From Gammaproteobacteria bacterium (lineage in GTDB: Bacteria; Pseudomonadota; Gammaproteobacteria; UBA12402): a DNA stretch of 64,000 nt. The translations under genes and the position numbers were made by a program. Each line of letters starts with the position of its first letter. Position 1 is the first letter of the stretch. Below are positions 10,082 to 47,088 of the stretch, one piece after another. The stretch covers positions 792 through 64,791 of the forward strand of contig JASFHH010000005.1 of assembly GCA_050123335.1 (NCBI GenBank), given 5' to 3'. Below the pieces are notes generated by a model. It saw only the letters and a list, made by a program, of their open reading frames with translations, was not told the origin of the DNA and did not search any database.

Positions 10082-10086
10082 TATTT

Positions 10087-10740: not shown

Positions 10741-10752
10741 GTTGCTCTCCTG

Positions 10753-11655
10753 TTAGTACTTTCCACTTTTGGCTTTTGTGCCGGTTACAATTGCAATACT
10801 AGCTGATGCGCCGATGCGATCAGCGCCTGCTTCAATCATTTTTTTTGCATCCTCTGTGCTGCGAATTCCTCCGGAAGCTTTTACTTCCATGTCACTTCCT
10901 ACAATTTTGCGCATTAATGCAATATCTTCCACAGTTGCACCGCCGGAACCAAAGCCAGTAGAAGTTTTTACAAATGCAGCGCCGGCAGTTTTGGATAACG
11001 CACACGCAATAACTTTTTCGTCGTGATCCAAATTAGAAGTTTCCAAAATAACTTTTACTTTATGTGGTTTGGATGCTTCAACTACTGCTAGAATATCGCG
11101 ATAAACAGTTACATAATCTTTGGATTTTAGTGCACCAATATTAATTACCATATCAATTTCTTCAGCGCCGTTTTTGATTGCTTCTTTTGCTTCAAACGCT
11201 TTAGATTGCGGGCTGGCTGCTCCTAATGGAAATCCGACAACTGCAATTGGTTTGACACTACTACCTTTTAATTCGCGTGATACAAAAGGGATATTACTTG
11301 AATTTACACAAACAGTAGCAAAATGATATTTTTTTGCTTCATCGCAAACTTTTTTAAGTTGTTCACGGGTTGCATCTGGTTTTAATAAGGTGTGATCAAT
11401 CATGCCGGCAAGTTTTGTGTCAACATTACGATCGATTCCTGGATTGGCGCCGATGCGATCTGCGCCTTCACGCAACATATTATTTATTGCTTCAGGTTTT
11501 TTAATCACACATAAGCCGCAATGTTCGCATGAGTCTGGTGATAAACCGCATGCACCAGCAGCAACTAAATCTGGTTGAGTTATTCCAGCTTGTTGTAATT
11601 TTTGAGTCACGCGGCGTGCAATAACTTCAACAAGTTCTTCGATTTTATCGGTCAT
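10753..11655 (-). CDS. deoC: Deoxyribose-phosphate aldolase (DERA) with ~80-aa N-terminal extension (putative encapsulation peptide + Cys cluster)
   Basis: The DeoC core starts near LAGMIDHTLLKPDAT, with catalytic Lys context FVKTSTGF. The extension MTDKIEELVEVIARRVTQKLQQ is predicted to be an amphipathic helix, followed by CGLSPDSCEHCGLCV. Confidence 0.85.
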   Translation of the reverse strand: MTDKIEELVEVIARRVTQKLQQAGITQPDLVAAGACGLSPDSCEHCGLCVIKKPEAINNMLREGADRIGANPGIDRNVDTKLAGMIDHTLLKPDATREQLKKVCDEAKKYHFATVCVNSSNIPFVSRELKGSSVKPIAVVGFPLGAASPQSKAFEAKEAIKNGAEEIDMVINIGALKSKDYVTVYRDILAVVEASKPHKVKVILETSNLDHDEKVIACALSKTAGAAFVKTSTGFGSGGATVEDIALMRKIVGSDMEVKASGGIRSTEDAKKMIEAGADRIGASASIAIVTGTKAKSGKY

Positions 11656-11674
11656 AATTATTCCCTCTTATATA

Positions 11675-11986
11675 TTATCTGGATCCCGGATCAACTGACT
11701 GGGTCCGGGATGACACATGCGCATGTGTCACTTTATCTACTATACCTACAATTACAGAGTGAAATGGATCATCTTTAGTTCCCAGCAATTGTCTGGCTGT
11801 ATTACCTTCGCGTTGAATTAATACAACATCGCCAGGTGCTGCTTGAGCTGTATCACAAGCTAAAAATGAATTACCTAAATCTTTGCCTTGTTCGTCAATT
11901 GGTTGCACGATTAAAACTCGATGTCCTTTGTAACAAGGATGTTTCTCAGTTGCAACTACATTGCCTTTAACTCTGGCTAAGATCAT
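11675..11986 (-). CDS. BMC vertex protein (BMC-P; EutN/PduN/CcmL family)
   Basis: MILARVKGNVVATEKH...GDVVLIQ...VIVGIVD motif pattern. The C-terminal 15-17 codons are read through a REP element plus a palindrome. Confidence 0.8.
   Translation of the reverse strand: MILARVKGNVVATEKHPCYKGHRVLIVQPIDEQGKDLGNSFLACDTAQAAPGDVVLIQREGNTARQLLGTKDDPFHSVIVGIVDKVTHAHVSSRTQSVDPGSR
11681..11730. repeat. REP-like hairpin (inverted orientation) plus adjacent 18-bp palindrome gacacatgcgcatgtgtc
   Basis: ggatcccggatcaactgactgggtccgggatgac. The stem variant GAC/GTC compensates relative to CGG/CCG in the other copies. Confidence 0.55.
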
Positions 11987-12318
11987 TCAAATATTTCCTC
12001 TTTATCTAAAATTCCAACATCTTCTTGATTAACTTGATCTACAATTCCGGTAATCGCAGCATCAACAGGTGTAAATGAATCTGGTAAAGTTAATGCAGCT
12101 TCTCTTGCTGTTATCCAATGTACTAAATCATTTAATCCTGCTTTTACCACTGGATCAACTGCAGCAATTGGTTTGCCTGTTGGTTTTAGATCGTCATTTA
12201 ATGGCTGAATCATTAAAATTTTTATGCCGTTTAAAGCCTCATGTTTTTGTGTTGCAACTACTGTGCCGATTACTTTTGCTAATTGCATTTTATATTCCTG
12301 TCCAATAAATTTCTTCAA
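11983..12318 (-). CDS. BMC vertex protein (BMC-P; EutN/PduN family), second copy
   Basis: MQLAKVIGTVVATQKH...IKILMIQP...ITGIVDQV. A more likely start is the M at 12288, which avoids overlap with the upstream gene. Confidence 0.75.
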   Translation of the reverse strand: MKKFIGQEYKMQLAKVIGTVVATQKHEALNGIKILMIQPLNDDLKPTGKPIAAVDPVVKAGLNDLVHWITAREAALTLPDSFTPVDAAITGIVDQVNQEDVGILDKEEIFE

Positions 12319-12853
12319 TCAAATCCGGATGCGGTGCTGGAATAATTTCACATCCTGCTAATAATCCTTCGGTTTTAATGTGTTTTTTTGCTGCATCAAT
12401 TGAAGCTTCAATGTCAGCTAATTTTCCGGTCATCACAAAATAACCTTTACCACCTAAACCGTTCGCTAATCTAATTTCTACTAATTTTGCTGGTGATGTT
12501 TTAGCGGCTAAATCTGCTCCAACAATGCAGGATGCGATTGAAAAAGTTTCGATAATACCAACGGCATCAAATTTTTTTATTTCAGTTGTTCCGGCAACAG
12601 CGGGAATCACATCCAAATGAATTTGCGGTAAGAATAAATTATTAATTACGCCATCATCGCCAACGTTAATACCTGCTTGCAATGATTCTTCGACATCGGC
12701 AACTTCGCCCGCAAAAATAACCATATATTTACCTGGGCAGATTGGGTTGCTGTTAAGAATTGTAACCGGAGCTTTTTTGGCAATTGCATCAGTTGCAAAC
12801 ATGCCTCGTGCTACTGAGTTGAATTCAATTAGTCCTAGCGATGGTTTTTGCAT
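12290..12853 (-). CDS. BMC shell protein, tandem-domain BMC-T of PduT type
   Basis: 187 aa with two BMC domains (LGLIEFNSVARGMFATDAIAKKAPV... and AVGIIETFSIASCIVGADLAAKTS...). A Cys in the second domain is consistent with the Fe-S-binding PduT type. Confidence 0.8.
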   Translation of the reverse strand: MQKPSLGLIEFNSVARGMFATDAIAKKAPVTILNSNPICPGKYMVIFAGEVADVEESLQAGINVGDDGVINNLFLPQIHLDVIPAVAGTTEIKKFDAVGIIETFSIASCIVGADLAAKTSPAKLVEIRLANGLGGKGYFVMTGKLADIEASIDAAKKHIKTEGLLAGCEIIPAPHPDLIEEIYWTGI

Positions 12854-14183
12854 ATTTAATCTCTATATAATTATCATTTACCTCAGTTATTTTGCCGTCA
12901 ATTGACGCGTGATAAACGGCGCCTAACTTATCTTGCGGCGTAGCCGCTATAATATCACATCTGCGTACCATTTGTCCTAGATTAACTTGGGAAATTGCAG
13001 GTGCTCCAACGTGTTTGTTTAGCGGAATGCGTACCATTTTGATTTGCTGTATTCCTGCAAAAACCGGTTTGCAATTATATTTTTCCAAGTTAAGTTTTTT
13101 CATTACCATTTGAATCGATGGTTTACGATTTTTAAATTGTGAATTGGCTTTAGCCGGTGCATTTTTATGTGGGCTTTTTACTCCACGAGATATTAATTCG
13201 CTTTTATATTCTGCAAAAATTTTGCGAGGTGAAAGATGCATAAAATCACAAGCAATCAATTCACACATGCCGCATTGGCTACATAAAAAAGCAGAAGTAA
13301 TATGCTTTGTTGGTTCAGCACTGTTGTATGCTATTGTGCGCATTGTCATGTGCGGATATAATTCGTGTCCTAATAAATTGCGCGGGCAAAGATCGGTGCA
13401 GCGAAAGCATTGGCAGCATGCAGATTTTGTTTGTTTGATTATTTGTCCCAAAGGTTTTTTTGCTTTACGAATTAATAAGTGATTTTTAGGTAATGCAATT
13501 ACACCACTGGTAGTTTTACCGATACCTTGATTCCAATCATCAACAATTTTTCCCATCATCGGGCCGCCATCAATTAAAACAGCGTCTTTAATTTTTAAGC
13601 CACCTGCTAATTTAATTAAATCGTTGTAAGTTGTGCCAATTGGAACAATTACAACTTTTGGTTCGCGAAGTTCTCCAATTAAAGTTACTGCGCGTTCAGT
13701 TATCGGTTTGCCGTTAACTGCATGTGCAATCTGCATTAAAGTGATTACGTTATTTACGACAATGCCAACGTTTAATGGGATGCCGCCTTCGGGAATTATT
13801 TTTCCGGTTACTTCATACACTAATAAAAATTCATCGCCTGCGGGATAATAATTATCTAACAAATGTAATTTGATCGATCCATCAGATGGTAAATGTTTTT
13901 TGATTGCATCAATTGCGTCGTGATAATGCGATTTTAATGCAATAATTCCTTGCTTAGCAGAAGTTGCTTGCATTGCATATTTCATGCCTTCGATTAATAA
14001 TTCTGGTTTTTGTACCATCATGGTGCGATCGCTGGCAAGAAGTGGTTCGCATTCAGAACCATTAGCAATGATGGTATCAACTTTTGTTTGTAATTTTACA
14101 TGTGTAGGAAATCCGCCGCCACCTGCGCCAATTATTCCGGCGTTTTTTACAGCTTGCACAATTTGTTCCGCTGTTTTTGGCAT
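12825..14183 (-). CDS. PduS/RnfC-family NADH-dependent Fe-S flavoprotein
   Basis: N-terminal GAGGGGFPTHVK (RnfC/PduS nucleotide-binding) motif. Two Cys clusters, CCQCFRCTDLCP and CSQCGMCELIACD, indicate 4Fe-4S ferredoxin-type sites. Confidence 0.8.
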   Translation of the reverse strand: MPKTAEQIVQAVKNAGIIGAGGGGFPTHVKLQTKVDTIIANGSECEPLLASDRTMMVQKPELLIEGMKYAMQATSAKQGIIALKSHYHDAIDAIKKHLPSDGSIKLHLLDNYYPAGDEFLLVYEVTGKIIPEGGIPLNVGIVVNNVITLMQIAHAVNGKPITERAVTLIGELREPKVVIVPIGTTYNDLIKLAGGLKIKDAVLIDGGPMMGKIVDDWNQGIGKTTSGVIALPKNHLLIRKAKKPLGQIIKQTKSACCQCFRCTDLCPRNLLGHELYPHMTMRTIAYNSAEPTKHITSAFLCSQCGMCELIACDFMHLSPRKIFAEYKSELISRGVKSPHKNAPAKANSQFKNRKPSIQMVMKKLNLEKYNCKPVFAGIQQIKMVRIPLNKHVGAPAISQVNLGQMVRRCDIIAATPQDKLGAVYHASIDGKITEVNDNYIEIKYAKTIARTN

Positions 14184-15616
14184 CAGACAATCCTAAAATA
14201 TCCGCTTAATACACATCTTCTAATTCTGGTAAAGTGACGTGCGGTAGTAACACCTTCGCCGGTAGGTGAAGCAATGGTAAAAGATGCTGGACCTTCACCT
14301 TCAATACCGAGTCCTGCAAGTGCCGGACCATTTTTTACAAAAATGGAGGTATTCATTTTTACCGCCATTTTATGCAAGTGTTCAACATTTTTTGAATGCA
14401 TAACCGAAGTATGAAAACATCCATCTTCTAATTGATAAGCAATTTCAATTGCTTCATCAACATCGTTTGCACGAATAAATGGTAATACCGGCATTAATAA
14501 TTCTAATTTTGCAAATGGATGATTAGCATCAGTTTCAACAAAAGCTAAACGTTTAGATGGATCGACTTGCAATCCAATTTGTTGCAAAATTAATTGAATG
14601 TCTTTGCCAACCCATTTTTTATTTGGGTGGCCATCTTGCACAATAATTTTTTCTAATTGTTTAGCTTGGTAATTATTAAGTTCAACTGCGCCATGTTTAA
14701 TTAATGCTTTTTTTAATTCGTCTGCGCAAGCGCGAGTTGCAATAATATTTTTTTCAATTAAACAAATAATATTATTGTCAGTGGATGCACTTATCACAAT
14801 ATCGCGGCCGGCTTTATCAATATCTGCAGTTTCATCAACTACAACTGGAGGATTGCCTGGTCCTGCAGCAATAACTTTTTTGCCGGATTGCATTGCGGCA
14901 TCTACTACAGCAGGGCCGCCGGTAACTACCAGCAAATTAATTTTTGGGTGTTTCATTAAAGTTTGTGCTGATTGAATTGTTGGGTTGATCACGGTTGTGA
15001 TTAAGTTTGGCGGACCACCAGCAGAAATAATTGCTTTATTAATTAAGCTGATAGTTAAGACAGATATTTTTTTAGCGCTTGGATGTGGATTAAAAGCAAC
15101 AGCGTTGCCTCCAGCAATCATAGCAATGGTATTGCTGATAATTGTTTCTGATGGATTAGTGCAGGGCGTGATAGAACCGATTAATCCATAAGGTGCATGT
15201 TCTAAAATGGTTAAGCCGTTGTCGCCGGTAAAAGTTATTGGTTCTAAATCTTCTATGCCCGGAGTGTTGTTAATTGCCAATTCATTCTTTTTTAATTTAT
15301 CTTCGTATCTACCAAGTCCAGTATCGGAAAGTGCTAATCGTGCAATTTGTTCAATGTTTTCGGTACAGATTTCACGAATAGCAGTAATGATTTTTTTACG
15401 TTGCTCTATCGGAATGGTTTTATATTCGAGGAAAGCTTTTTCTGCAGCAAGAATTGCTTCTTCGATATCAGTAAAACACCCCGGGGTGTCATTAGTTTGT
15501 GTGGTGATATTTGGTTTTTGTGGTGCGCTTTTTATTTTAGTTTCCGCAGCAGGAATTACCAATTTATTAACTACACGATCGACAATCGAACTTATTTGTT
15601 GTTCGCTAATAGACAT
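14183..15616 (-). CDS. CoA-acylating aldehyde dehydrogenase (EutE/PduP family) with N-terminal encapsulation peptide
   Basis: ALDH fold with catalytic Cys context (SITPCTNPSE region). The N-terminal amphipathic helix QQISSIVDRVVNKLV followed by a Pro/Thr/Gln linker is typical of PduP/EutE targeting peptides. Confidence 0.85.
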   Translation of the reverse strand: MSISEQQISSIVDRVVNKLVIPAAETKIKSAPQKPNITTQTNDTPGCFTDIEEAILAAEKAFLEYKTIPIEQRKKIITAIREICTENIEQIARLALSDTGLGRYEDKLKKNELAINNTPGIEDLEPITFTGDNGLTILEHAPYGLIGSITPCTNPSETIISNTIAMIAGGNAVAFNPHPSAKKISVLTISLINKAIISAGGPPNLITTVINPTIQSAQTLMKHPKINLLVVTGGPAVVDAAMQSGKKVIAAGPGNPPVVVDETADIDKAGRDIVISASTDNNIICLIEKNIIATRACADELKKALIKHGAVELNNYQAKQLEKIIVQDGHPNKKWVGKDIQLILQQIGLQVDPSKRLAFVETDANHPFAKLELLMPVLPFIRANDVDEAIEIAYQLEDGCFHTSVMHSKNVEHLHKMAVKMNTSIFVKNGPALAGLGIEGEGPASFTIASPTGEGVTTARHFTRIRRCVLSGYFRIV

Positions 15617-18986: not shown

Positions 18987-20102
18987 TTAATGCCATCTAT
19001 ATCTAAATTTTAAATTATTGAATTTATTATATCCAATATAATTCATATGCTGAAGCCGTCCCACAAGAATGCCTGGGGCAATATTCAATTTTTTGGCAAA
19101 TTCAATAATCAGGGCGGTACTCAGTTTATCATTTTTCTTTAACCATTCATTTAAGCGTGATGAAGGGATTAAAGTTTCTGCTGCATATTTATCTGCTTCT
19201 AATTCTTCGGAAGATTTATTTACAGTCTTGTTATTTATTTCAACAAAAAATTCTTTTTTGCTGTGTTTAATTATGTGACCTATTTCATGAAAGATTGTGA
19301 ACCATAAAATGTCGGCTGTTTTACCTCTTAAGCTTAATTGAACTAATGCTTTTTCAGGATTCAACCAGCAAGAAGCTCCATAAATAGGAACTTTTGGAAA
19401 AGGCTTTATAAAGACAATGGCGATTCCACAATCAGCACAAATATTCTTTAATTTAGGAACAAATATTTCTGGATCTTTTTCTTTAGTAAGCGCGCGCATT
19501 TGATCGAGTGATGAAATTAATTTTTCTTTATCAAATAGTTTGCATTGAATTTTTTCTCCTTCAAGCTCTCCCTTTCTTAACCAAACGCTAATAGCACCAA
19601 TATCTGATTTTAGATTCATGGCTTTCCTAAATGCAAGCCGTCGCCGTGTCCATCCTTGTTCCCATTGCTCTGGTGTGGCTACTCCAAAAAAATTTAATAT
19701 GGCAATCATTTGCTCCGCAACAGTATCGCCACATTTAAGAAGCCAACCTCTTTTTTTCATTTCTTTGATTGGAAACTGCTTAAGCCAATCTTTTTCTGCA
19801 GTTAAACGTTCTAACTCTTTTTGCTGGGCAAGGTAAGCACGGTAATTGGCTTCTCTTTGATTCCAAAATGCAGCAGGAGTACCAAGTGCTCTTTCCAACT
19901 GAATAGCTGTCTCTGAAGTAATTGCGGCTTTACCTTTGATAATTTCGTTGATAGTTTTTAATGGGCGACCAATACGTTCTGCAAGCGCTACTTGAGTCAT
20001 ACCTCGTTCTTCAAGAATTTCAAGCAATGTTGCTCCAGGGGCAGAAACGATGTCTGGTTGGTAAAAAAGTTTACTTTTTTCAATCATGGGTATCCTCCAC
20101 AT
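18987..20102 (-). CDS. HigA-like XRE-family HTH antitoxin fused to ImmA/IrrE-family zinc metallopeptidase (COG2856)
   Basis: N-terminal HTH (LLEILEERGMTQVALAERIG…) and a C-terminal HEXXH motif (FHEIGHIIKH). Likely start at MIEKSKLF. Confidence 0.7.
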   Translation of the reverse strand: MWRIPMIEKSKLFYQPDIVSAPGATLLEILEERGMTQVALAERIGRPLKTINEIIKGKAAITSETAIQLERALGTPAAFWNQREANYRAYLAQQKELERLTAEKDWLKQFPIKEMKKRGWLLKCGDTVAEQMIAILNFFGVATPEQWEQGWTRRRLAFRKAMNLKSDIGAISVWLRKGELEGEKIQCKLFDKEKLISSLDQMRALTKEKDPEIFVPKLKNICADCGIAIVFIKPFPKVPIYGASCWLNPEKALVQLSLRGKTADILWFTIFHEIGHIIKHSKKEFFVEINNKTVNKSSEELEADKYAAETLIPSSRLNEWLKKNDKLSTALIIEFAKKLNIAPGILVGRLQHMNYIGYNKFNNLKFRYRWH

Positions 20103-20415
20103 TTATTATTTTTATAGCGTTAACTAAATTCCAATTTATTCCACCACCATCTTTTTTATTTATACTCTTATTTGTTGGTTCAAATATCAATCTTAATGGA
20201 TGTTCCAAATCAAGAGAAAGCAACCCTTTTTTATCACCTATTAGTTCGTGGCAACGACCTGGTAATGTCTTAAAAGCTTCTAAATTAGGAGCAGCTTGTA
20301 AATCATCAAGGCGCGCTCTAATCTTTCGGGCACAATTTTTACCATAAGTTTTAAGCAACTTTTTTTCTGAGTTACAGATTTTCTGAAGCTTTTTATTTTT
20401 AAAGGTGATCTCCAT
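20080..20415 (-). CDS. higB: HigB-like toxin (RelE/ParE superfamily, plasmid-maintenance killer type)
   Basis: …ARKIRARLDDLQAAPNLEAFKTLPGRCHELIGDKKGLLSLDLEHPLRLIFE… is the HigB/RelE-like pattern. Sits upstream of and overlapping the HTH gene. Confidence 0.7.
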   Translation of the reverse strand: MEITFKNKKLQKICNSEKKLLKTYGKNCARKIRARLDDLQAAPNLEAFKTLPGRCHELIGDKKGLLSLDLEHPLRLIFEPTNKSINKKDGGGINWNLVNAIKIINVEDTHD

Positions 20416-20548: not shown

Positions 20549-20577
20549 TGGTGGAGGCGGCGGGAATCGAATCTGCG
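20549..20577 (-). other. Partial copy of the tmRNA (ssrA) 3' end: att-site remnant of an integrated element
   Basis: tggtggaggcggcgggaatcgaatctgcg vs the authentic ssrA 3' end at 32061 (tggtggaggcggcgggaatcgaacccgcg). Preceded by ttttgggaattattt, shared with the 21686 copy. Confidence 0.6.
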
Positions 20578-20628
20578 TTATAGCTTATTGATTTTTGAAC
20601 CGTGGAAACAATCATACAATTCAAATTT

Positions 20629-23229: not shown

Positions 23230-24057
23230 ATGAGCAAATGGGATCAAATTGTTACTAGTGATGTTAATGATAAAACAGAATTAAAAAATTTAGAAAATGA
23301 TTATGCAAGAGGAGAGTTTTTGCAGAATATGTTAATTAGTACGGCTACAGGCGGTCAATCTCAGAGAGATGATCAATACAAAAAGTTAAGAAGATATTTC
23401 ATGGAAAGTGAACATGCCAATTTATTGCCTTTTTGGGTTAAGAGTAATAGAGATCTGGGAAGTTTCTGGCCATTTATACAAGAACAATTTTCAACTTATC
23501 GAGAAAGACGCGCTTTTATAAGAACAGAATTTGATCGTTTATTGAGTGCACTAGAAGCAAATTGTACTTGTCTGATTGTTGAGTCTGTTAATTTAACAAT
23601 GCGGCAGATAACACATGCAAATTTAAATTCATATTGGAATAAGGCTATAAAAAGAGTAGGGACTGATCCAGAAGGAGCTATTACAATAGCTAAAACATTA
23701 TTAGAAGGGAGTTGTAAGGAGATACTAGATCGTCAATGTGTAGAATATGATGATGACAAAATAACATTACCAAAATTATATAAAATAACAGCCAAATCAT
23801 TACAACTACATTCTACGCAACATATTGAAAAAATTTTTAAGAGTATCTTAGGTGGTTGTTCTGCGATAGTTGGAGGACTTGGCAATGTTAGAAATGAGCT
23901 TGGTGATGCACATCATCGTAAAATAAAACCATTACGTAGACATGCTGAATTAGCTGTTAATATGGCGGGGTCGATGGCAAAATTTTTATTTCAAACTTTA
24001 GAAGACAGAATGGAAATTAAAAAAGGAAAAAAACAAAGCAACGATAACATTAATTAA
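23230..24057 (+). CDS. HEPN/Abi_C-domain protein (AbiJ-like abortive-infection family)
   Basis: C-terminal Rx6H HEPN-type motif within GLGNVRNELGDAHHRK. Overall resembles Abi_C (abortive infection C-terminus) proteins. Confidence 0.55.
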   Translation: MSKWDQIVTSDVNDKTELKNLENDYARGEFLQNMLISTATGGQSQRDDQYKKLRRYFMESEHANLLPFWVKSNRDLGSFWPFIQEQFSTYRERRAFIRTEFDRLLSALEANCTCLIVESVNLTMRQITHANLNSYWNKAIKRVGTDPEGAITIAKTLLEGSCKEILDRQCVEYDDDKITLPKLYKITAKSLQLHSTQHIEKIFKSILGGCSAIVGGLGNVRNELGDAHHRKIKPLRRHAELAVNMAGSMAKFLFQTLEDRMEIKKGKKQSNDNIN

Positions 24058-25392: not shown

Positions 25393-26309
25393 ATGATTAA
25401 AAATGTTCGCAAAAAAAACATCATTACTTAGCAAGAGTATACCTAAATGGTTTTTGTGATCAGAATAATATGGTTTGGTCATATCATAAAGATGATCTTT
25501 CAAAAATACATTGTCAAACACCAGACAATACAGCAATTGAAAAAAATCTTTATGCTGTGGATGGAATTGATGTTAATGTGTTTGAAGACTTTTTATCTGA
25601 CCAAATAGAAAGTCCAGCAGTAAATGCATTAAAGGAATTACAAAAAGGTCAACTGCCATCAAATAATGATAGACTTGTTTTAGCAAAATTTTTTGGCTTC
25701 ATGTTAGTACGAACTCCGTCATATAAGGCTTCTAATGAACAGCCATTTGAGCGTGAATCTAATATGTTACTAAAATTATACGTACAACATAAAGAGTGTT
25801 TTCAAAATTGGTGTAATAAATATGAAGGAATCAATAATCAACCTATAGCTAAAGATATTGAGCGACTAAGGCAAGAAATCTTAAATGGAAAATACATACT
25901 AAAACCACATCATAATTTTAGTCTTAATACTATAGGAAAATTGGGTTTAAGCATTGATTCTTATTTATTAAATATGAAATGGATAATGATAAAAGCACCC
26001 AAAGGTTATTTCTTTTTAACTTCTGACAATCCTGTTATTATCACAAATCCAGAGTGCAATGGATTTTATTCAACAGGATTAGGACAAGAAAACACTAGAG
26101 TTTTTATCCCAATTTCAAAGGAAATTGGTCTTCTTATGGTTAATTTAGATATTGATGGTTTTGACAATCAATCAATTGATAATAATAGTGAGATTGTAGG
26201 GCATATGAATAAAGCAATCATTCTGTTTGCATCCAAATTTATATTTAGTCATAAAAAAAACGACGACATTACACAATTAATAAAAAAAGTAACTGAAAAT
26301 AAAAATTGA
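25393..26309 (+). pseudogene. DUF4238-family protein, frameshifted in an A8 homopolymer near the 5' end
   Basis: ATG at 25393 (MIKNVRKK…) hits a stop after 12 codons. One extra or missing A in aaaaaaaa (25411-25418) restores …KKHHYLARVYLNGF…, the DUF4238 N-terminal HHY-x-x-x-YL motif. The downstream body contains the DUF4238 hallmark TSDNPV. Confidence 0.6.
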
Positions 26310-26479
26310 AATTATGTGTTGTAGACAGGGCAAAGTCGTTTTTCATCCTGTGTATGCGATTTTAAAAGCGCATTTACTTTTTTACATGTTTATAAAAGAT
26401 ATTAGTGTGACCTATACAGTTTAATTGAGCGGCGACTACTTAACGTTTGGCTTAGTGTTGCATGGATAAAGGCTTTTGG

Positions 26480-26940
26480 TTATTTACTTTAATTAGTTGC
26501 CCCCCAGACTGCCCCCCCCCTGAAATTGGCTTTGTTTTGCAAAAAACAAAGGTAGTTTATTCTATTTGCATTTTTCTTATCAATCTGAGATACTAAAAAC
26601 GTGCTAGTAACACACATGCAAAGCGGTAAAACTGCGTCCGATAACCGCGGTTTTTTTGTACCTAAATGTCGGGCGTTCGTTGGAATACAATACCCTTGGG
26701 AAATACAGCGAGCCACGCTTTGCAGTGGTTACTAACGCCTGACACCAATTAAATTTGGGATTATTAGTAAAATTGCAAAGGAGTAAAATCATGTCACATA
26801 TTTCAAAAAAATTATCTTTATTTATCAATAAGTTAATTGATGCAGAATAGTAAAAGTCTTACACAACAATCAGATGTTTTTCGGTGGTTAAAACATGCTC
26901 AATCATCCATAATTACTATGCGCAAGCTTTCTGAGGAGGA
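26480..26940 (+). other. Structured non-coding leader with poly-C tracts, long-range inverted repeats and a 19-codon ORF with strong SD
   Basis: gttgccccccagactgccccccccc (C6 and C9 tracts). The 22-nt arm gtgctagtaacacacatgcaaagcgg (26601-26626) is complementary to ccacgctttgcagtggttactaac (26712-26735). Hairpin ctttgttttgcaaaaaacaaag. aaggag-N7-ATG at 26791 gives MSHISKKLSLFINKLIDAE*. Locally GC-richer than its surroundings. Confidence 0.3.
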
Positions 26941-26942
26941 AA

Positions 26943-28289
26943 TTGATGACTGCGAAAATACATCAACCAGCGTGTGAATTGACTGAAGGCTGTTGGGTTG
27001 ATTTTAGAGAAATGGTGCAACAAGTTGAACCGGAATTGTTTGACATCATTGAGAAAATAAACCCAAATAAAGAGCACAAATTAATTAAAGCCAGATATTT
27101 ATATGGCGAGCAAATTACTGATCTTGGTACCATTTGTGTTCCAGATAAATTTGGCCGTTTAGTACGTTTAGATAACGCTAATGTCTCCAGTGAGTTGCAA
27201 GATCAATTGGGCTATTGTCCTACGCCGCTAGTTTTGCAATTAAAAAATGCTGGTGAGGTTTTTGTTGAAACAGAAGATCGCATCGCGCCATTAAATATTT
27301 TTATGCCGGGGGATATGTACGGGTTATATGAAATTTTAGTTCCGCTTTCTGGTTGTCCAGCCGTACCTTGTTGGAGTATTACATCCGGAGGCAGATCGGT
27401 ATTTTTAGCATCTAAAATTACCGATGCAATCGGTCACAAAAAATTGCGTAAGGAATTTGGTGTATCACCAGTTCCACCGAAAAACATCAAAGATCAATGG
27501 GCAACTATGAAAACTATTGCTAACCGAGGCAGAAAAGATAATCCTTGGTCATCAGAAATATTAATTTTTACCAAAGAATGGTTTACCGAAAAAGATGACG
27601 ATATTAATTGGATGAGATTTCAAAACTACTTGATGAAAAAAGCGTGGTGGCAATCTCGAAGTACTCGCGCACAAATTGAATATAGTATTATGTGGGAATC
27701 TTTTGCTAAAGCAGTGTGTGCTAGAAATTTAAAACCTAGTTCTTATATTGTTGATACAGTAAAACATTTAATGCTATTAACTGCTGGCACAACTCCCGGA
27801 TTTAAAGCGATTGATACCAGTGAAAACATCATGCCGTCAAAGATTGTAGAAAAAGCATATACGGACATTTACGGTTTAAAAGATTATGCGGCCATTATTA
27901 TGCATCCTCACGTAACTAAATTAAATAGTCATGATGAGCAAGTTTATTACTCGATGGCCTATCCTACTTTAATTTCCGGCACGCCGTCTATTCGTAAAAA
28001 CACAAACACCATGACTGAAATTCGTGACGTGCAGACATTGATGAAAATGCTTGAAAAAATATTATCTTCTTATGAAGATCGTGTTCATAATTCAATGAAA
28101 AACGTTAAGTTTGAATATTTTCATAGTGATGAAGATCGTTTTGGGGAAATCCTAAATAGCCATAGCATAACTAAAACTGATGCGGCAATCTTAAATATTT
28201 TAAACGAACGTTTTCCTGGTAAAAAATTTCCTTCATACGGTTCATTTTTCAGAGGGTGCATTAGAATAAGCAGGAAGAATGTTGGTTAA
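26943..28289 (+). CDS. Hypothetical protein (448 aa), convergent partner of the rSAM-Nudix gene
   Basis: Long ORF with no recognisable motifs. Its 3' end overlaps the 3' end of the opposite-strand rSAM-Nudix gene by 48 nt. Confidence 0.5.
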   Translation: MMTAKIHQPACELTEGCWVDFREMVQQVEPELFDIIEKINPNKEHKLIKARYLYGEQITDLGTICVPDKFGRLVRLDNANVSSELQDQLGYCPTPLVLQLKNAGEVFVETEDRIAPLNIFMPGDMYGLYEILVPLSGCPAVPCWSITSGGRSVFLASKITDAIGHKKLRKEFGVSPVPPKNIKDQWATMKTIANRGRKDNPWSSEILIFTKEWFTEKDDDINWMRFQNYLMKKAWWQSRSTRAQIEYSIMWESFAKAVCARNLKPSSYIVDTVKHLMLLTAGTTPGFKAIDTSENIMPSKIVEKAYTDIYGLKDYAAIIMHPHVTKLNSHDEQVYYSMAYPTLISGTPSIRKNTNTMTEIRDVQTLMKMLEKILSSYEDRVHNSMKNVKFEYFHSDEDRFGEILNSHSITKTDAAILNILNERFPGKKFPSYGSFFRGCIRISRKNVG

Positions 28290-29978
28290 AAACATTTTTT
28301 TAGTTGTAGGAAATAATTGTAACGTTAACAAATTCTCTGGCGAAAAATATTTGTATTCTGCAATTTCTCGCTTGTCAATTTTGTATTTGTTTTTACAGCC
28401 ATTGTTTTCTGCAATCCACCAATGCAACTCATCTACATCGTAATCAGCATTAGATGTGCCTATTTTTTTGATGGGAATTACCGCTAAACCAAGCTCCTCA
28501 TGAGCTTCTCTGATAACTGCTGCTTCCTCTGTTTCACCTTGCTCAATTTTGCCATGAATGGGTGCCCAATGATCTTTGTATGGCTTTTTATTTTGTTTTA
28601 CCAACAGATATTTTCCGTTTTGTATAATAACTATAACTACACCCGAACGTTTTTTATCGGATACACTTGCCACATTAACTATGTCACCTTGCATATAACG
28701 TTCATATTGTTTTTTAGTTAGTGGAATTTGCATAATTTTGTTAGCATTCATACAAGCTTTATCATTGGATTTTTCATTGGTTAAATAGACATGCGCTTTA
28801 GTAAAATTAAAATTGGCGTTTTGCTTTAGTAAAGCTACGATGTTTGCAAAACTAATGTTATTTTCCTTATCGATGCAAAATTGACAGTTTTTTGGAATGT
28901 TTTTTTGAAAATCTTGGATGTGGCTATTATTTTTCAATAAAGTTGCTATAGATTGAGTTTTATCATTTATTGTGCCTATTTTAGCTTTTGGCATTATACC
29001 ATTGCGAGCTAGGCAACATAATTGTAATGATAAATCGGCTAATATGATAAATCTTAATCGTGATATCCAGCAGAAATTAAAATCATCTTTTGGTTTGAAA
29101 GATATTCCATATTGTTTTTCAATAATAAAATCTCTTTTATCTTTGATGTTTTGTTTGAATATATTTATTTGATTTTCAACAAATGGAATGATTTCAGGGT
29201 GATCATCGTAAACTTTTCTACAAATATTTTTTCTAATAGCAATCCAGTTAGCCCCCACATCATACATATCACACATAAATTTACTGATGTTGCGATAATT
29301 TTCCGGAAGCATAATAAAGGTAGCACCAATAAATAATTCTTGTTCTCTATTAAATTTAATAGCCTCAACATGAACCGTTTTTATTTTCTTAATCAAGTTT
29401 TCGTAATTATGTGCCTTATCATTTGATTTATGAACTTGATATCTGGAATTATTATCAAAAGAATCAACACTAATTCGTAAATGATGAACGTAGTTAGCAA
29501 TAGTTTTAATAATATTGCCTTGTAATAAATCACCATTCGTTTCGACAGTAATTTTTAATTTTAAATCGGCTAAATATTTTATAATTTCGATAATTTTAGG
29601 ATGATTTAGAGGATCACCACCACCAGTTAATCTAACACTTTTTCCACCTAAATTTTTGAAATCATCAAAGATAGATTTAAGTTGGTCTAATGGCAATGTT
29701 GAATTTAACTTGGAATTTAATTTCTTTGAAAAACACATGATGCAATTATTTGAACAGTTACTAGTAACATCAATATCTAATCTTATAGGCGATAAAGTTT
29801 GATTAAAATATGCGCTTTTTATCGCTTTTATCCACTCATCTAATTGCTCAGGAAACATCTTAGCGTGATTTTGGTAAAAAACATATGTCTTAGCATTACA
29901 TATAGCGCATATTGCATTCCATTTGCCGTATTGTCGATTAACAAGAATATTTTCGTGGTAATTGAAAACCATCTTCAT
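28242..29978 (-). CDS. Radical SAM (SPASM/twitch-like) enzyme fused to a C-terminal Nudix hydrolase domain
   Basis: CX3CX2C motif (CSNNCIMC) with a downstream GGGDPL SAM-binding motif. Additional Cys-rich region (CWISRL…LCCLARN…CQFC). Nudix box GKIEQGETEEAAVIREAHEELGL at aa ~470-495. An N-terminal CxxC pair is also present. Confidence 0.75.
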   Translation of the reverse strand: MKMVFNYHENILVNRQYGKWNAICAICNAKTYVFYQNHAKMFPEQLDEWIKAIKSAYFNQTLSPIRLDIDVTSNCSNNCIMCFSKKLNSKLNSTLPLDQLKSIFDDFKNLGGKSVRLTGGGDPLNHPKIIEIIKYLADLKLKITVETNGDLLQGNIIKTIANYVHHLRISVDSFDNNSRYQVHKSNDKAHNYENLIKKIKTVHVEAIKFNREQELFIGATFIMLPENYRNISKFMCDMYDVGANWIAIRKNICRKVYDDHPEIIPFVENQINIFKQNIKDKRDFIIEKQYGISFKPKDDFNFCWISRLRFIILADLSLQLCCLARNGIMPKAKIGTINDKTQSIATLLKNNSHIQDFQKNIPKNCQFCIDKENNISFANIVALLKQNANFNFTKAHVYLTNEKSNDKACMNANKIMQIPLTKKQYERYMQGDIVNVASVSDKKRSGVVIVIIQNGKYLLVKQNKKPYKDHWAPIHGKIEQGETEEAAVIREAHEELGLAVIPIKKIGTSNADYDVDELHWWIAENNGCKNKYKIDKREIAEYKYFSPENLLTLQLFPTTKKMFLTNILPAYSNAPSEK

Positions 29979-30239
29979 TACCTTTATTTTTCAATGCCTT
30001 ATAGCGATGTTACTGGCAGTTTCTTGTTTTTTGAGTAAATCCAAGCCAAATGTAACATTTTTGTGTTGAAATTTCGATAACAAAAATAGCGTTTGAATTT
30101 AGATTATCAATCTTATTTTGAAGAAGCTATCATTAAGTTGAGTAATTAATATGCAGGAGTATTTTTAACCGATTCATCTGAAAAAAATAATAGCAAAAAC
30201 CACATTCAGGAAGAATCTTAATTTACAAGGAGAAATGTT

Positions 30240-30728
30240 ATGTTAAATCAACGAACGGATGGTTTTTGGATTGGGAGTGATTCGATGGTTTTTGGCAATA
30301 ACAATCGCAAGATTTATAAAGACACAGAAAAATTTAAAATTTTGTTAATCGAAGATGATGAACTTATTAGCAAAATCAATTTAACTTTTTTAAAACAACT
30401 TGGTTATGACGTGGATGTTGCGCGGAATGGTTGTCAAGCTATTAAGTTTTTAAAAAACGATTACGATTTATTTTTACTTGATGTGGGCTTACCTGATATC
30501 TATGGGGTGAGAGTGTGCGAAATAATAAGAACTATACCAAAATTTTTGCACACCCCCGTGATTTTTCTAACAGCCTTTGGGGAGGGGCTTAAAGCAGAGT
30601 GTAAAGCTGCAGGTGGTAATGATTTTGCGATGAAGCCATTACCAATGGAAGAATTAAAAAATTTGGTTGATAAATGGCTGCTTGATAATAACAACAATTC
30701 GGAAGCAAAATATGGATGCAAGGCTTGA
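30240..30728 (+). CDS. Stand-alone response-regulator receiver (CheY-like) domain protein
   Basis: …KILLIEDDELI…DLFLLDVGLPDIYG…VIFLTAFGE…KAAGGNDFAMKP… carries the receiver-domain Asp and Lys signature. The start may be the M at 30286. Confidence 0.6.
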   Translation: MLNQRTDGFWIGSDSMVFGNNNRKIYKDTEKFKILLIEDDELISKINLTFLKQLGYDVDVARNGCQAIKFLKNDYDLFLLDVGLPDIYGVRVCEIIRTIPKFLHTPVIFLTAFGEGLKAECKAAGGNDFAMKPLPMEELKNLVDKWLLDNNNNSEAKYGCKA

Positions 30729-31070
30729 GTTACAGGATATTATTGATGAACATTTAACAAAAACACACGCTATATTGAATTGCTTATTAGCAGCATGGAG
30801 CAGCGACCATCATGTTGACCAGGATACTATTTTTCACGCGCTTTGGTCGATGGAAGATCATTTATTGGAAATTAAGAAATATCGGGATGCATCGTCTAAA
30901 AGGGGAAGGCAGCATTAATTCTTTTGTTGCATTTCAACTGTACGAAAACATCGTGCAGTTGAAATCGCGTAAATTTAAGTAAGCATTTTGTTAGCATCAA
31001 CAAAATAGTGGGGTTTTGATTAATAAGCTTTCTAAACGGTGTAGATGATGAAATGGCAAGTTTATAATCA

Positions 31071-32060: not shown

Positions 32061-32417
32061 TGGTGGAGGCGGCGGGAATCGAACCCGCGTCCGCGAACTC
32101 TCCGCCATCGGTTCTACATGCGTAGCTAATCATTAAATTTCATTATTTGCTGCCCGATTAGCAGGGATCACAAATAACTAGCCTAAGTTAAATTTAGCGG
32201 TATTGCCTTAGGCGCACTTTACCGCGAGCTTATGAAATATGACCATCAGATTCAAGCGCATAAGCACACTTGGGTGATGGGCTGTGCCTGTTTAAGCGGC
32301 GACAGCGTAAAGTTCGTCGTTTGCGACTACTTTGTTGCAGCATGATTTACGAGGTTAAGCTACGTCCTCGGCATGCCCCTTTGGTTTTGCAATCCACGTC
32401 GAAGCCGGGTCGCCCCC
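32061..32417 (-). ncRNA. ssrA: tmRNA (ssrA)
   Basis: The 5' end GGGGGCGACCCGGCTTCGACGTGGATTGC… pairs with the 3' end …GCGGGTTCGATTCCCGCCGCCTCCACCA. Internal tag reading frame GCAAACGACGAACTTTACGCTGTCGCCGCTTAA gives ANDELYAVAA*. Confidence 0.85.
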
Positions 32418-46020: not shown

Positions 46021-47010
46021 ATGTTTTTATTATTGTGTTGTTCTTTAGTGATGACAAATGCATTTGCAGTTGGCGTAGCATCGTCGCCTGTTCCACTTGA
46101 TCGCATTGCTGCTATAGTTAATAATGATGTAATTACTGAATCACAGCTCGATCATCAAATTGCAATTACAAAAAATGAAATTCGGCAAGCGAATATGCAA
46201 TTGCCGCCCGAAAATGTATTACGCAAACAAGTGTTGCAGCAATTAATTGATCAGCAATTGCAATTGCAGTTAGCTGAGAGTTCGGGTATTAACGTTAGTG
46301 ATGCAGAATTAAATTTAGGGTTGCAGCGAATTGCAAAACAGCGGAACATAAGTGTGCATCAGCTTTATCAACAGGTGCAAAAAGTTGGTTACACAATTAA
46401 AGAATTTCGGCAAGAGGCGCGTAATCAAGTTAAAATTGAAAAATTGCAGCAACGAAATATTATTTCCCGGATTAGAGTTACCCCACAAGAAGTAAATGAT
46501 TTTTTACTTACGATGAAGCGCAGTGGACAATCAGTATCACGAGAATATCATTTACGTGATATACTTATTCCATTAGCTGATGCTCCATCACCAGCACAAA
46601 TTGCAGAAGCCGAAAAACAGGCAAAAAATATTATGCAGCAGCTTAAGCATGGCGCTAATTTTCAGCAATTAGCAATAGCAAAATCAAGCGGTAGCAAAGC
46701 ACTGCAAGGAGGCGATCTTGGATGGCGTAAATTAGCTGAATTGCCGGCAGTTTTTGCCGACAAGGTAAAGAAAATGAAAATTGGTGATGTGGCTGGCCCA
46801 ATTCGTGCTTCCAATGGAGTGCATATAATAAAATTATTAAGTACACGTGGGCCGCAATCTTCACAGCAAGTTAACAAAAAAGAGATTCAGCAAATGATTT
46901 TTCAGCGGAAAGCTGAAGAAGAGCTGCAGCAGTTTATTAATACTTTGCGAAGTCAGGTATATGTTAAAAGATTTCCTGCAAAACAGGAAGCTGTAGAAAC
47001 CAGCGATTAA
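46021..47010 (+). CDS. surA: Periplasmic chaperone/peptidyl-prolyl isomerase SurA
   Basis: Signal peptide MFLLLCCSLVMTNAFA, a SurA N-domain (…DRIAAIVNNDVITESQL…) and one parvulin PPIase domain. Start set at the M at 46021, after the palindromic insertion. Confidence 0.85.
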   Translation: MFLLLCCSLVMTNAFAVGVASSPVPLDRIAAIVNNDVITESQLDHQIAITKNEIRQANMQLPPENVLRKQVLQQLIDQQLQLQLAESSGINVSDAELNLGLQRIAKQRNISVHQLYQQVQKVGYTIKEFRQEARNQVKIEKLQQRNIISRIRVTPQEVNDFLLTMKRSGQSVSREYHLRDILIPLADAPSPAQIAEAEKQAKNIMQQLKHGANFQQLAIAKSSGSKALQGGDLGWRKLAELPAVFADKVKKMKIGDVAGPIRASNGVHIIKLLSTRGPQSSQQVNKKEIQQMIFQRKAEEELQQFINTLRSQVYVKRFPAKQEAVETSD

Positions 47011-47088
47011 GAATCGAATTTATTTTTGTAAAAATCGCTTGACGCAAAGGCTGCTAATCGGTTTAATGCGTGATAGTTTTTGTTTTAT

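What the first reader, a model, noticed from the sequence alone, without database searches (positions are those of the whole stretch)
26943..29978. Radical-SAM-Nudix fusion protein paired with an unknown 448-aa protein: candidate novel nucleotide-modifying (defence?) system
The 578-aa minus-strand protein joins a CX3CX2C radical-SAM core (CSNNCIMC, GGGDPL), extra SPASM/twitch-like cysteines and a canonical Nudix box (GKIEQGETEEAAVIREAHEELGL). I do not recognise this architecture as a named system. By analogy with viperin-type rSAM enzymes that make chain-terminating nucleotides, an rSAM that modifies a nucleotide and a fused Nudix that trims or activates the product is plausible. Its 3' end overlaps by 48 nt with the convergent 448-aa ORF, which has no recognisable motifs. 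The pair sits in a defence-flavoured ssrA island next to Abi/HEPN and DUF4238 genes. Convergent overlapping partners are atypical and might instead indicate antisense regulation.
Basis: partly seen in the sequence, partly recalled or inferred. Interest (0 to 1): 0.8.

Follow-up and report, generated by a model that had tools for sequence, protein, structure and literature searches.

The report
Radical-SAM/Nudix module with nucleotide-sensor-like partner
A rare, undescribed radical-SAM enzyme fused to a Nudix pyrophosphatase is conserved next to a protein whose N-terminal half looks like a cyclic-nucleotide-binding domain. Distant relatives of the enzyme sit beside TIR, SIR2 or HD 'immune effector' proteins, so this is a credible but untested candidate for a new nucleotide-based conflict or defence module.

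Summary
A 578-aa radical-SAM–Nudix fusion (28242-29978, minus strand) converges on a 448-aa gene (26943-28289, plus strand) with a 48-nt overlap. Both lie inside an ~11.5-kb island bounded by ssrA and a 29-nt copy of its 3' end.

- **The rSAM family is tiny and unannotated.** Only 29 clusters were found. It has CX3CX2C plus four invariant extra cysteines. It resembles viperin, MoaA and BlsE only in the core and fails their family cut-offs.
- **A specific Nudix subfamily travels with it.** It is present in 8 of 13 loci. It is fused in three proteins and a separate gene elsewhere.
- **The third gene is swappable.** It is the 448-aa family in four loci read directly (window, L001, L010/L011, L014). 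Five more short contigs are inferred from matching contig lengths only. Elsewhere it is SIR2-TPR, TIR-TPR, HD-CE-TPR or an IMPase-like protein.
- **The 448-aa family is large.** It has 1,653 representative clusters and usually pairs with an SAH-hydrolase-like enzyme. The rSAM-linked members form one derived clade.

Best reading (confidence about 0.4): a mobile nucleotide-modifying conflict module. A small-molecule biosynthesis or signalling role is a serious rival. Nothing has been tested experimentally.

The parts
28242..29978 (-). 578-aa radical-SAM–Nudix fusion gene. The database form P0001 starts at the second ATG (29972) and is 576 aa.
   Evidence: ORF. Pfam Radical_SAM and NUDIX. A 100 % identical database protein is.
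29733..29756 (-). CX3CX2C radical-SAM cluster motif (C75, C79, C82; CSNNCIMC).
   Evidence: Invariant in alignment A6.
28875..29072 (-). Region carrying four invariant extra cysteines (C303, C321, C365, C368; spacing C-X17-C-X43-C-X2-C). It is a probable auxiliary [4Fe-4S] site of the twitch type.
   Evidence: The cysteines are invariant across 13 sequences, including members 28-30 % identical. The cluster assignment is inferred.
28296..28652 (-). MutT-type Nudix domain, with the Nudix box at 28485-28553.
   Evidence: Pfam E 7e-16. The canonical box is shown. The nearest solved relatives are MutT and (d)NTP pyrophosphatases.
26943..28289 (+). 448-aa partner gene (probable true start ATG at 26946). 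It belongs to a large family with no annotation.
   Evidence: ORF. 78 homologues. 1,653 representative clusters. No Pfam, PADLOC or PHROG family and only noise-level NCBIfam matches.
27060..27413 (+). CNBD-like beta-roll (about residues 40-157). It includes the conserved PGD[LM][YF]G[LV][FY]E ... G[AG]RS[VT]F segment (27306-27404).
27414..28286 (+). C-terminal region of about 290 aa with no recognisable fold. It carries conserved K264, R361, H394, D398, D413 and FFRGC (435-439).
28242..28289 (.). 48-nt convergent overlap of the two 3' ends. It encodes SFFRGCIRISRKNVG of the 448-aa protein and the last 15 residues (LTNILPAYSNAPSEK) plus the stop codon of the fusion.
   Evidence: Overlaps of 47 nt (L001) and 57 nt (L014) also occur, but L010/L011 have a 21-nt gap.
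30240..30728 (+). Single-domain response regulator, divergent from the fusion gene. It is a possible fourth member of the block.
   Evidence: Pfam Response_reg. Homologues flank the module in L014 (85 %) and in the SAHH-type loci L004, L006 and L008. It is absent from L001 and L010, so membership is uncertain.
30667..30918 (+). Small ORF of about 68-83 aa, conserved with L014. No family assignment.
29979..30239 (.). Divergent intergenic region between the fusion gene and the response regulator.
   Evidence: The aligned stretch (29940-30280 against L014), which contains this gap, has 90 % mean column identity to L014. No Rfam match. The promoter scan was not above chance.
32061..32417 (-). ssrA (tmRNA). 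Its 3' end forms the proximal island border.
20549..20577 (+). att-like direct repeat of the ssrA 3' end (27 of 29 nt; the alignment extends it to about 34 nt). It forms the distal island border.
25470..26309 (+). DUF4238 gene, an island neighbour that matches a PADLOC candidate defence family.
23230..24057 (+). AbiJ-like gene with an Abi_C (HEPN-type) C-terminus, an island neighbour.

Best explanation
This is a horizontally mobile, three-part nucleotide-modification module that most likely acts in a biological conflict, either anti-phage or against other mobile elements.

1. The radical-SAM domain belongs to a new family. It has a CX3CX2C cluster plus a four-cysteine auxiliary cluster, and its core is nearest to viperin, MoaA and BlsE. 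It uses SAM-derived radical chemistry to alter the sugar or base of a nucleotide, probably an NTP.
2. The obligatory MutT-type Nudix partner is fused here. It cleaves the pyrophosphate of that substrate or product, either to release or activate the product or to limit it.
3. The convergent 448-aa protein binds the resulting nucleotide-like molecule in its CNBD-like pocket. It acts as receptor/effector or as the next processing step. It occupies the slot that SIR2-TPR, TIR-TPR or HD-CE-TPR proteins hold in other branches of the rSAM family.

Shown: the domain content, the conserved synteny, the partner swapping, the island location and the CNBD-like fold. Inferred: the substrate class, the order of the reactions, ligand binding by the 448-aa protein, and the defence role.
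For: - **Domains and motifs:**
- **Rarity and lack of annotation:** 16 and then 29 clusters were found in 5.8 billion.
- **Nearest relatives act on nucleotides or nucleosides:** NCBIfam and PADLOC give weak MoaA and viperin hits. PDB hits are viperin-like, MoaA and BlsE.
- **Nudix type:** the domain is MutT/(d)NTP-pyrophosphatase-like and keeps RE-x2-EE in all partners.
- **One orthologous Nudix subfamily accompanies the rSAM** in 8 of 13 distinct loci. This includes a locus whose rSAM is only about 29 % identical.
- **The trio is kept across flanks that differ,** at about 52-63 % protein identity.
- **The third gene is swapped for conflict-type effectors:** ThsA-like SIR2-TPR in L003, TIR-TPR in L043, and HD-CE-TPR in L017, L042 and L041. 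These share weak similarity in their TPR bodies.
- **Neighbours are typical of conflict and mobile regions:** AbiJ-like, DUF4238, AbiEi/AbiEii, HipA, a relaxase, a resolvase and transposases.
- **The module lies in an ssrA island bounded by an att repeat**, and again in L014.
- **The CNBD-like fold comes from two independent structure comparisons**. The hits include the PycTIR sensor domain.
- **There is a formal precedent.** In Kongming, an NTP-pyrophosphatase-fold protein plus a SIR2 protein respond to a base-modified nucleotide (abstracts of PMC13454610 and 10.1101/2024.12.20.629578).
Against: - There is no experimental evidence of any kind.
- The 448-aa family is far larger than the rSAM family (1,653 against 29 clusters).
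- In 8 sampled loci the 448-aa protein pairs instead with an SAH-hydrolase-like enzyme. Some of these loci have housekeeping flanks (Rickettsia endosymbiont, L038). Others contain SDR, methyltransferase, GNAT, MFS or DMT genes, or sit beside an ATP-grasp/ThiS/ThiF/YcaO/TfuA cluster on pLPP. That looks more like small-molecule metabolism than immunity.
- The CNBD similarity is at fold level only. There is no cNMP_binding hit in 73 members, and hhalign against CRP gives 2 % probability.
- TPR-effector partners have no obvious nucleotide-sensor domain.
- One member of the rSAM-linked 448 clade (P0025) stands alone.
- No integrase or phage genes tie the island to phage pressure, and the 448-aa family was not found on viral contigs.
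- The mirror-tree test showed no co-evolution signal.
Confidence: 0.4

Rival explanations
1. The genes carry out specialised small-molecule metabolism or signalling, not immunity. The 448-aa family would be an enzyme or ligand-binding subunit that works with a ribose- or nucleoside-directed enzyme. That enzyme is usually an NAD-dependent SAH-hydrolase-like oxidoreductase and is here replaced by rSAM plus Nudix. Together they would make or sense a nucleoside-derived metabolite such as an antimetabolite, a cofactor-like compound or an intercellular or host-directed signal. The adjacent response regulator would belong to the read-out.
For: - All 8 rSAM-free loci sampled pair the 448-aa gene with an SAHH-like protein that keeps the H, DDGG, E-Q-T and K motif positions.
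- In L037 the pair overlaps by 4 nt, within a reduced endosymbiont genome among housekeeping genes.
- Neighbours include SDR, GNAT, methyltransferase, MFS and DMT genes.
- A distant homologue on pLPP sits beside an ATP-grasp/ThiS/ThiF/YcaO/TfuA cluster.
- rSAM-linked 448 proteins form a single derived clade among SAHH-linked lineages, which suggests a like-for-like enzyme replacement.
- A response regulator is adjacent in both module types.
Against: - The rSAM family's other partners (TIR, SIR2, HD-CE with TPR) and its neighbours (Abi, HipA, transposases) are typical of conflict systems, not biosynthesis.
- No transporter or tailoring genes lie in the window's island.
- The distribution is patchy and island- or plasmid-borne.
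- No biosynthetic family models match.
Confidence: 0.3
2. The rSAM is a protein or peptide maturase of the twitch/SPASM type. It would post-translationally modify its variable partner (the 448-aa protein or the TPR-effector proteins) or a small peptide. The Nudix domain would have an accessory or regulatory role.
For: - Four invariant auxiliary-cluster cysteines follow the core.
- NCBIfam hits include SPASM-type maturases such as the tungsten-cofactor maturase, ScmF, PqqE and AlbA, all at low scores.
- TPR domains in the partners usually bind peptides.
- A radical-SAM effector that modifies a peptide has been proposed in other conflict systems (PMC7159879).
Against: - There is no SPASM or RRE/PqqD Pfam hit.
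- No conserved small ORF lies next to the gene.
- The constant partner is a nucleotide pyrophosphatase with an intact catalytic box, plus HAD, IMPase and HD phosphohydrolases elsewhere. This points to nucleotides.
- The best PDB relatives act on nucleotides or nucleosides.
Confidence: 0.12
3. The two transcription units are functionally unrelated island cargo and are inherited together only by common descent. The 448-aa gene would be an orphaned remnant of an SAHH-type module lying next to an independent rSAM-Nudix, viperin-like single-gene system.
For: - The genes are convergent, so they are not co-transcribed.
- The 448-aa gene can stand alone (P0025).
- The rSAM-Nudix pair occurs without the 448-aa gene (L003, L013).
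- There is no co-evolution signal.
Against: - Adjacency is kept across at least four sequenced loci, and probably nine, at only 52-69 % identity and with unrelated flanks.
- The usual SAHH-like partner is missing exactly in this clade.
Confidence: 0.12

Closest known systems
Prokaryotic viperins (pVip) and eukaryotic viperin
   Same: Both are radical-SAM enzymes found in defence-island contexts. The CX3CX2C core of this protein aligns with viperin-like structures (E about 1e-6) and with the PADLOC pVip models (E 1e-17 to 1e-19). The substrate class is presumed to be nucleotides.
   Different: Only residues about 61-210 align. The score is 58 bits against the 180-bit cut-off of NF038283. This family has a different C-terminal half with four invariant cysteines, a conserved N-terminal extension, and an obligatory Nudix partner plus a swappable third gene. 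None of these is a viperin feature.
Kongming (KomABC) base-modified-nucleotide signalling
   Same: The logic is formally similar. A nucleotide-modifying enzyme works with an NTP-pyrophosphatase-fold protein and a SIR2 effector. L003 has rSAM, SIR2-TPR and Nudix.
   Different: There is no sequence relationship. [quoted passage not shown] From memory, not checked here, the modifying enzyme is a deaminase and KomB is HAM1/ITPase-like. Here the parts are a radical-SAM enzyme and a catalytically intact MutT-type Nudix. The window's version has the 448-aa protein instead of SIR2.
Pycsar (and, more generally, CBASS and Thoeris) signal-plus-sensor-effector systems
   Different: No cyclase, CD-NTase or TIR generator is present. 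The CNBD resemblance is structural only. The C-terminal 'effector' part has no known fold.
MoaA (GTP 3',8-cyclase), BlsE, and twitch-domain rSAM enzymes such as BtrN
   Same: The core is similar (MoaA E 4e-7). A second Fe-S cluster lies in the C-terminal half. The C-X17-C-X43-C-X2-C spacing recalls the BtrN twitch-domain ligands, but that is from my memory and was not tested.
   Different: Scores are far below the family cut-offs (62 against 284 bits for TIGR02666). The MoaA CX2CX13C pattern is absent. There is no molybdopterin or aminoglycoside gene context.
OxsB/OxsA of oxetanocin-A biosynthesis (from memory)
   Same: A radical-SAM enzyme is paired with a nucleotide phosphohydrolase and together they remodel the sugar of a (d)NTP or (d)NMP into an antiviral nucleoside analogue. 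This rSAM family is likewise paired with Nudix, HD, HAD or IMPase phosphohydrolases.
   Different: OxsB is cobalamin-dependent and OxsA is an HD protein. No B12 domain is present here, and no sequence relationship was tested.

Membership tests
Radical SAM superfamily (PF04055) | CX3CX2C cluster motif and a Pfam score above the gathering threshold. | tested here: met
   68.5 bits against a 29.5-bit cut-off. C75, C79 and C82 are invariant.
Viperin / pVip (NF038283, TIGR04278) | Whole-protein score above the curated cut-off, with full-length alignment including the C-terminal nucleotide-binding extension. | tested here: not met
   58.2 bits against 180, and 38.4 against 450. Only residues about 38-210 align. 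PDB hits are restricted to profile positions 61-203.
MoaA GTP 3',8-cyclase (TIGR02666) | Curated cut-off, and the C-terminal CX2CX13C cluster. | tested here: not met
   62.4 bits against 284. The invariant cysteines follow C-X17-C-X43-C-X2-C instead.
SPASM/twitch-domain rSAM enzymes | An auxiliary [4Fe-4S] cluster ligated by conserved cysteines C-terminal to the core. | tested here: inconclusive
   Four invariant cysteines are present, but there is no SPASM Pfam hit. The comparison with BtrN is from memory.
Nudix hydrolase superfamily (PF00293) | Nudix box GX5EX7REUXEEXGU and a Pfam score above threshold. | tested here: met
   58.9 bits against 21.1. The box lies at residues 476-498. RE-x2-EE is kept in all stand-alone orthologues.
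Cyclic-nucleotide-binding domain (PF00027) | Eight-stranded beta-roll fold. | tested here: met
Cyclic-nucleotide-binding domain (PF00027) | Sequence-profile match, and a phosphate-binding cassette (GE..AL ... R[ST]A). | tested here: not met
   None of 73 family members hit cNMP_binding even at E 5. hhalign against CRP gives 2 % probability. A GDxFG-like segment and an invariant R-S pair exist, but about 18 residues separate them rather than about 4, and they could not be placed by superposition.
Known anti-phage systems in PADLOC-DB v2 | All components of a defined system are matched. | tested here: not met
   Only partial hits were found: the pVip core and the single-gene candidate PDC-S07 for the Nudix. 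The 448-aa protein has none.
Kongming / Pycsar / Thoeris signalling systems | The family-specific signal generator is present (the Kongming nucleotide-modifying enzyme KomA, a pyrimidine cyclase, or ThsB TIR). | tested here: not met
   No such domain occurs in the module. The resemblance is one of logic only.
Anti-phage defence system (functional class) | Protection against phage on heterologous expression. | not testable with these tools
   This needs experiments.

The most novel reading that the evidence does not exclude
The rSAM-Nudix enzyme would make a previously unknown radical-SAM-derived nucleotide second messenger. That messenger would be read by the CNBD-like domain of the 448-aa protein, and in other branches by TPR-linked SIR2, TIR or HD effectors. 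This would be the first immune or conflict signalling pathway whose signal is generated by radical chemistry. The much larger SAHH-like plus 448-aa pairing would be a sister signalling system that uses NAD-dependent ribose oxidation instead.
Probability: 0.12. Interest if true: 0.9.

Novelty: new variant of a known kind. Interest (0 to 1): 0.62.

Why it matters
Viperin is so far the only radical-SAM enzyme family established in antiviral immunity, as far as I know. A second, unrelated rSAM family tied to a dedicated Nudix enzyme and to swappable TIR, SIR2, HD or CNBD-like partners would widen the chemistry used in nucleotide-based immunity. It could also yield new nucleotide analogues or messengers.

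Independently, the 448-aa protein opens up a large family with no annotation: 1,653 clusters at 50 % identity and no Pfam model. This family is widespread in Legionellales and in other, mostly uncultured bacteria, including a Rickettsia endosymbiont and a Francisella plasmid. It has a confident model and two alternative nucleoside-chemistry partners. Its function is now directly testable.

Tried and rejected
1. **Sequence searches for the 448-aa protein found no family.** Pfam (single protein and all 73 members), PADLOC and PHROGs returned no family, NCBIfam only two noise-level matches, and PDB only chance-level matches.
2. **hhalign of the family against E. coli CRP gave 2 % probability**. 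The CNBD claim therefore rests on fold only.
4. **Viral contig scans were empty.** There were no relatives of the 448-aa family and only a generic rSAM hit.
5. **The promoter and terminator scan of 26300-30400 was not above shuffled expectation**. No riboswitch was found.
6. **Antisense regulation through the overlap was rejected as a conserved feature.** L010/L011 lack the overlap.
7. **The mirror-tree (Mantel) test gave r = -0.39.** The phylogeny is star-like, so the test is uninformative. Five of the eight pairs were assigned only by matching contig lengths.
8. **Cluster look-ups gave no names or taxonomy** for representatives of the 448-aa family.
9. **Literature searches found no description of such a system.** The searches combined rSAM with Nudix, SIR2, TIR and defence terms, and SAHH-like with Legionella.
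10. **The first genome scan with the 73-sequence alignment failed** because the alignment was too diverse. It was repeated with 27 sequences.
11. **No structure model of the rSAM-Nudix protein was made.** Both prediction slots went to the 448-aa protein.


Full report
**1. Observation**

Both ORFs exist as described. The 448-aa gene runs from 26943 to 28289 on the plus strand. The 578-aa gene runs from 28242 to 29978 on the minus strand. They converge and share 48 nt.

Pfam places Radical_SAM at residues 71-208 (E 1e-18) and NUDIX at residues 443-561 (E 7e-16), both above their cut-offs. CSNNCIMC lies at residues 75-82, GGGDPL at 119-124, and a canonical Nudix box at 476-498. An ATG at 26946, 7 nt after GAGGAGG, is the likelier start of the 448-aa gene. 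That start matches the 447-aa database entry.

**2. Island context**

The tmRNA gene lies at 32061-32417 on the minus strand, next to smpB. A 29-nt copy of its 3' end with 2 mismatches lies at 20549-20577, where none is expected by chance. Alignment extends the repeat to about 34 nt.

The module therefore sits in an island of about 11.5 kb with lower G+C. The island also holds:
- a Bro-N gene
- an AbiJ-like (Abi_C) gene
- a DUF4238 gene, which matches a PADLOC candidate family
- a response regulator and a membrane protein

No integrase lies inside the island. A HigB-like gene with an HTH/M78 partner lies just outside the repeat. In the closest relative, L014, the module also lies downstream of ssrA.

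**3. The rSAM family**

The family is rare. The word-indexed search of 5.8 billion clusters found 16 proteins. A profile search found 29. Only three of these carry the Nudix fusion.

Curated models give only sub-threshold, core-restricted hits:
- tungsten-cofactor maturase: 83 bits against a cut-off of 380
- MoaA: 62 against 284
- viperin: 58 against 180

The PADLOC pVip models also match the core only. Against solved structures the best matches are viperin-like enzymes, MoaA and BlsE. These reach E about 1e-6 to 1e-7 and cover profile positions 61-200 only. So the protein is not a member of any of these families, although its nearest relatives act on nucleotides or nucleosides.

Across 13 sequences, down to 28 % identity, the invariant cysteines are C75, C79 and C82 plus C303, C321, C365 and C368. 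This fits a fully ligated auxiliary cluster. The likeness to the BtrN twitch domain is from memory and was not tested.

**4. The Nudix partner**

In most relatives the Nudix is a separate gene of 132-139 aa, placed directly after or before the rSAM gene (L001, L010/L011, L012, L013). In L003 it is one gene further along.

These Nudix proteins form one orthologous subfamily with shared motifs outside the Nudix box. All of them keep RE-x2-EE. The same subfamily appears as a HAD-Nudix fusion in L041, where the rSAM is only about 29 % identical. In total it accompanies the rSAM in 8 of 13 distinct loci.

The domain is MutT/(d)NTP-pyrophosphatase-like. The constant core of the system is therefore rSAM plus a nucleotide pyrophosphatase.

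**5. The third gene is variable**

| Partner of the rSAM | Loci |
|---|---|
| 448-aa family, convergent | window, L001, L010/L011, L014 |
| ThsA-like SIR2 fused to TPR | L003 |
| Inositol-monophosphatase-family protein | L013 |
| HD-CE-TPR (in L041 split by a transposase) | L017, L042, L041 |
| TIR-TPR | L043 |
| None within the flanks | L002 (beside AbiEi/AbiEii), L016 |

The TPR bodies of the SIR2, TIR and HD-CE partners show weak mutual similarity at matching positions (32-44 bits). This is suggestive only. Swapping of effector heads, together with Abi, HipA, relaxase, resolvase and transposase neighbours, is the usual signature of conflict systems.

**6. The 448-aa protein**

No library used here assigns the protein to a family. 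The AF2 model built from 73 homologues is nevertheless confident, with pLDDT 93.7 and pTM 0.92.

The family conserves PGD[LM][YF]G[LV][FY]E followed, after about 18 residues, by G[AG]RS[VT]F. This recalls the GDxFGE ... R[ST]A phosphate-binding cassette. There is no sequence-level support, however, so the ligand need not be a cyclic nucleotide.

**7. The 448-aa family is large and usually has a different partner**

An exhaustive profile search found 1,653 representative clusters at E ≤ 1e-3 and 897 at E ≤ 1e-30. The 150 best are listed. All but one 340-aa fragment are about 415-475 aa and match over almost the full profile.

All eight rSAM-free loci examined place the gene next to a protein of about 440 aa. 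These loci are six Legionellales or gammaproteobacterial MAGs, a Rickettsia endosymbiont, and L038. A profile of that neighbour matches S-adenosylhomocysteine hydrolases at E 1e-12 across both domains. It keeps the H, DDGG, E-Q-T and K motif positions.

Extra neighbours in these loci are SDR, GNAT, methyltransferase, MFS and DMT genes. Distant homologues (21-26 % identity) lie on Legionella and Francisella plasmids. One sits beside a methyltransferase and an MFS transporter. Another, on pLPP, sits beside an ATP-grasp/ThiS/ThiF/YcaO/TfuA cluster.

An NJ tree places all rSAM-linked 448 proteins in one derived clade, nested among SAHH-linked lineages. The simplest reading is that rSAM plus Nudix replaced the SAHH-like enzyme once. 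That implies the two are functional analogues, both acting on a nucleoside or ribose moiety.

A single-domain response regulator flanks both module types: the window and L014, and also L004, L006 and L008.

**8. Interpretation**

The evidence points in two directions.
- Partner swapping in the rSAM family and the island context favour a conflict or defence role.
- The broader contexts of the 448-aa family favour small-molecule metabolism or signalling.

Both agree on one point. The module handles a nucleotide- or nucleoside-like molecule, and the 448-aa protein is the component that binds it or processes it further.

I rank the explanations as follows:

| Explanation | Confidence |
|---|---|
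| Conflict reading (best) | 0.40 |
| Metabolic or signalling rival | 0.30 |
| Protein-maturase reading | 0.12 |
| Unrelated neighbours | 0.12 |

A formal precedent for modified-nucleotide signalling with an NTP-pyrophosphatase-fold sensor and a SIR2 effector is Kongming (abstracts). There is no homology to that system.

**9. Overlap and regulation**

The convergent arrangement is conserved, but the overlap is not. It is 47 nt in L001 and 57 nt in L014, while L010/L011 have a 21-nt gap. No terminator or promoter signal exceeded chance.

The aligned stretch containing the 261-bp gap between the fusion gene and the response regulator has 90 % mean column identity to L014. That suggests shared regulatory DNA, but it rests on only two sequences.

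**10. Novelty**

No named system, PADLOC model or paper in the searched library describes this rSAM family, its Nudix coupling, or the 448-aa family. I classify it as a new variant of a known kind, namely nucleotide-centred conflict modules with a radical-SAM enzyme. Its function is unproven.

Noticed in passing
window 26668-26751 (+): A full-length Rfam match to sRNA-Xcc1 (RF02221) scores just below threshold: 48.4 bits against a 53-bit gathering score, E 3e-6. It lies in the 633-bp gap upstream of the 448-aa gene. Its ends form an inverted repeat (GTCGGGCGTT ... AACGCCTGAC). From memory, this family is linked to integron cassettes. It was not found in L001, L010, L014, L040, L004 or L006.
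   Followed up: partly
window 20549-20582 and 32061-32094: A direct repeat of about 34 nt of the ssrA 3' end bounds an island of about 11.5 kb that has no integrase inside. A HigB-like gene with an HTH/Peptidase_M78 partner (18987-20415) lies just outside the distal repeat. This could be the remnant of a second, older insertion.
   Followed up: partly
window 12290-15616 (-): There is a run of bacterial-microcompartment-type genes: a BMC-domain shell protein (12290-12853), a Nuo51/RnfC-like Fe-S flavoprotein (12825-14183) and an aldehyde dehydrogenase (14183-15616). This suggests a metabolosome locus upstream of the island.
   Followed up: no
L004-L009, L037, L038 (448-family loci without the rSAM): A divergent S-adenosylhomocysteine-hydrolase-like protein of about 440 aa is the usual neighbour of the 448-aa family. 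In a Rickettsia endosymbiont the two genes overlap by 4 nt and lie among housekeeping genes. This conserved pair is itself uncharacterised.
   Followed up: partly
L046 (L. pneumophila Paris plasmid pLPP, record 8469-14379): A distant homologue of the 448-aa protein is followed by ATP-grasp, MoaD/ThiS, MoeB/ThiF, YcaO and TfuA genes, with a LOG-family (TIGR00730) gene and an oligopeptide symporter upstream. This looks like a thioamide-type or small-molecule biosynthetic cluster.
   Followed up: no
window 30240-30918 and L014 6656-7331; also L004, L006, L008: A single-domain response regulator, plus in the window and L014 a small conserved ORF, flanks both the rSAM-type and the SAHH-type modules despite different outer flanks. 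No cognate histidine kinase was seen nearby.
   Followed up: partly
L041 2781-5991: An HD-CE-TPR gene next to the distant rSAM is split by a Transposase_mut/MULE insertion. The 201-aa head and the 430-aa TPR body both match intact L042 and L017 proteins.
   Followed up: yes
window 47000-60000: A long stretch has very low G+C (0.27-0.30) and includes a 1,361-aa ORF at 56218-60303. It begins next to tRNA-Phe (47088-47162) and may be another island. It was not examined.
   Followed up: no
L001 4109-6373: A 754-aa ankyrin-repeat protein lies directly beside the module in L001. Such proteins are typical of effectors in intracellular Legionellales-like bacteria and hint at the lifestyle of the hosts.
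   Followed up: no
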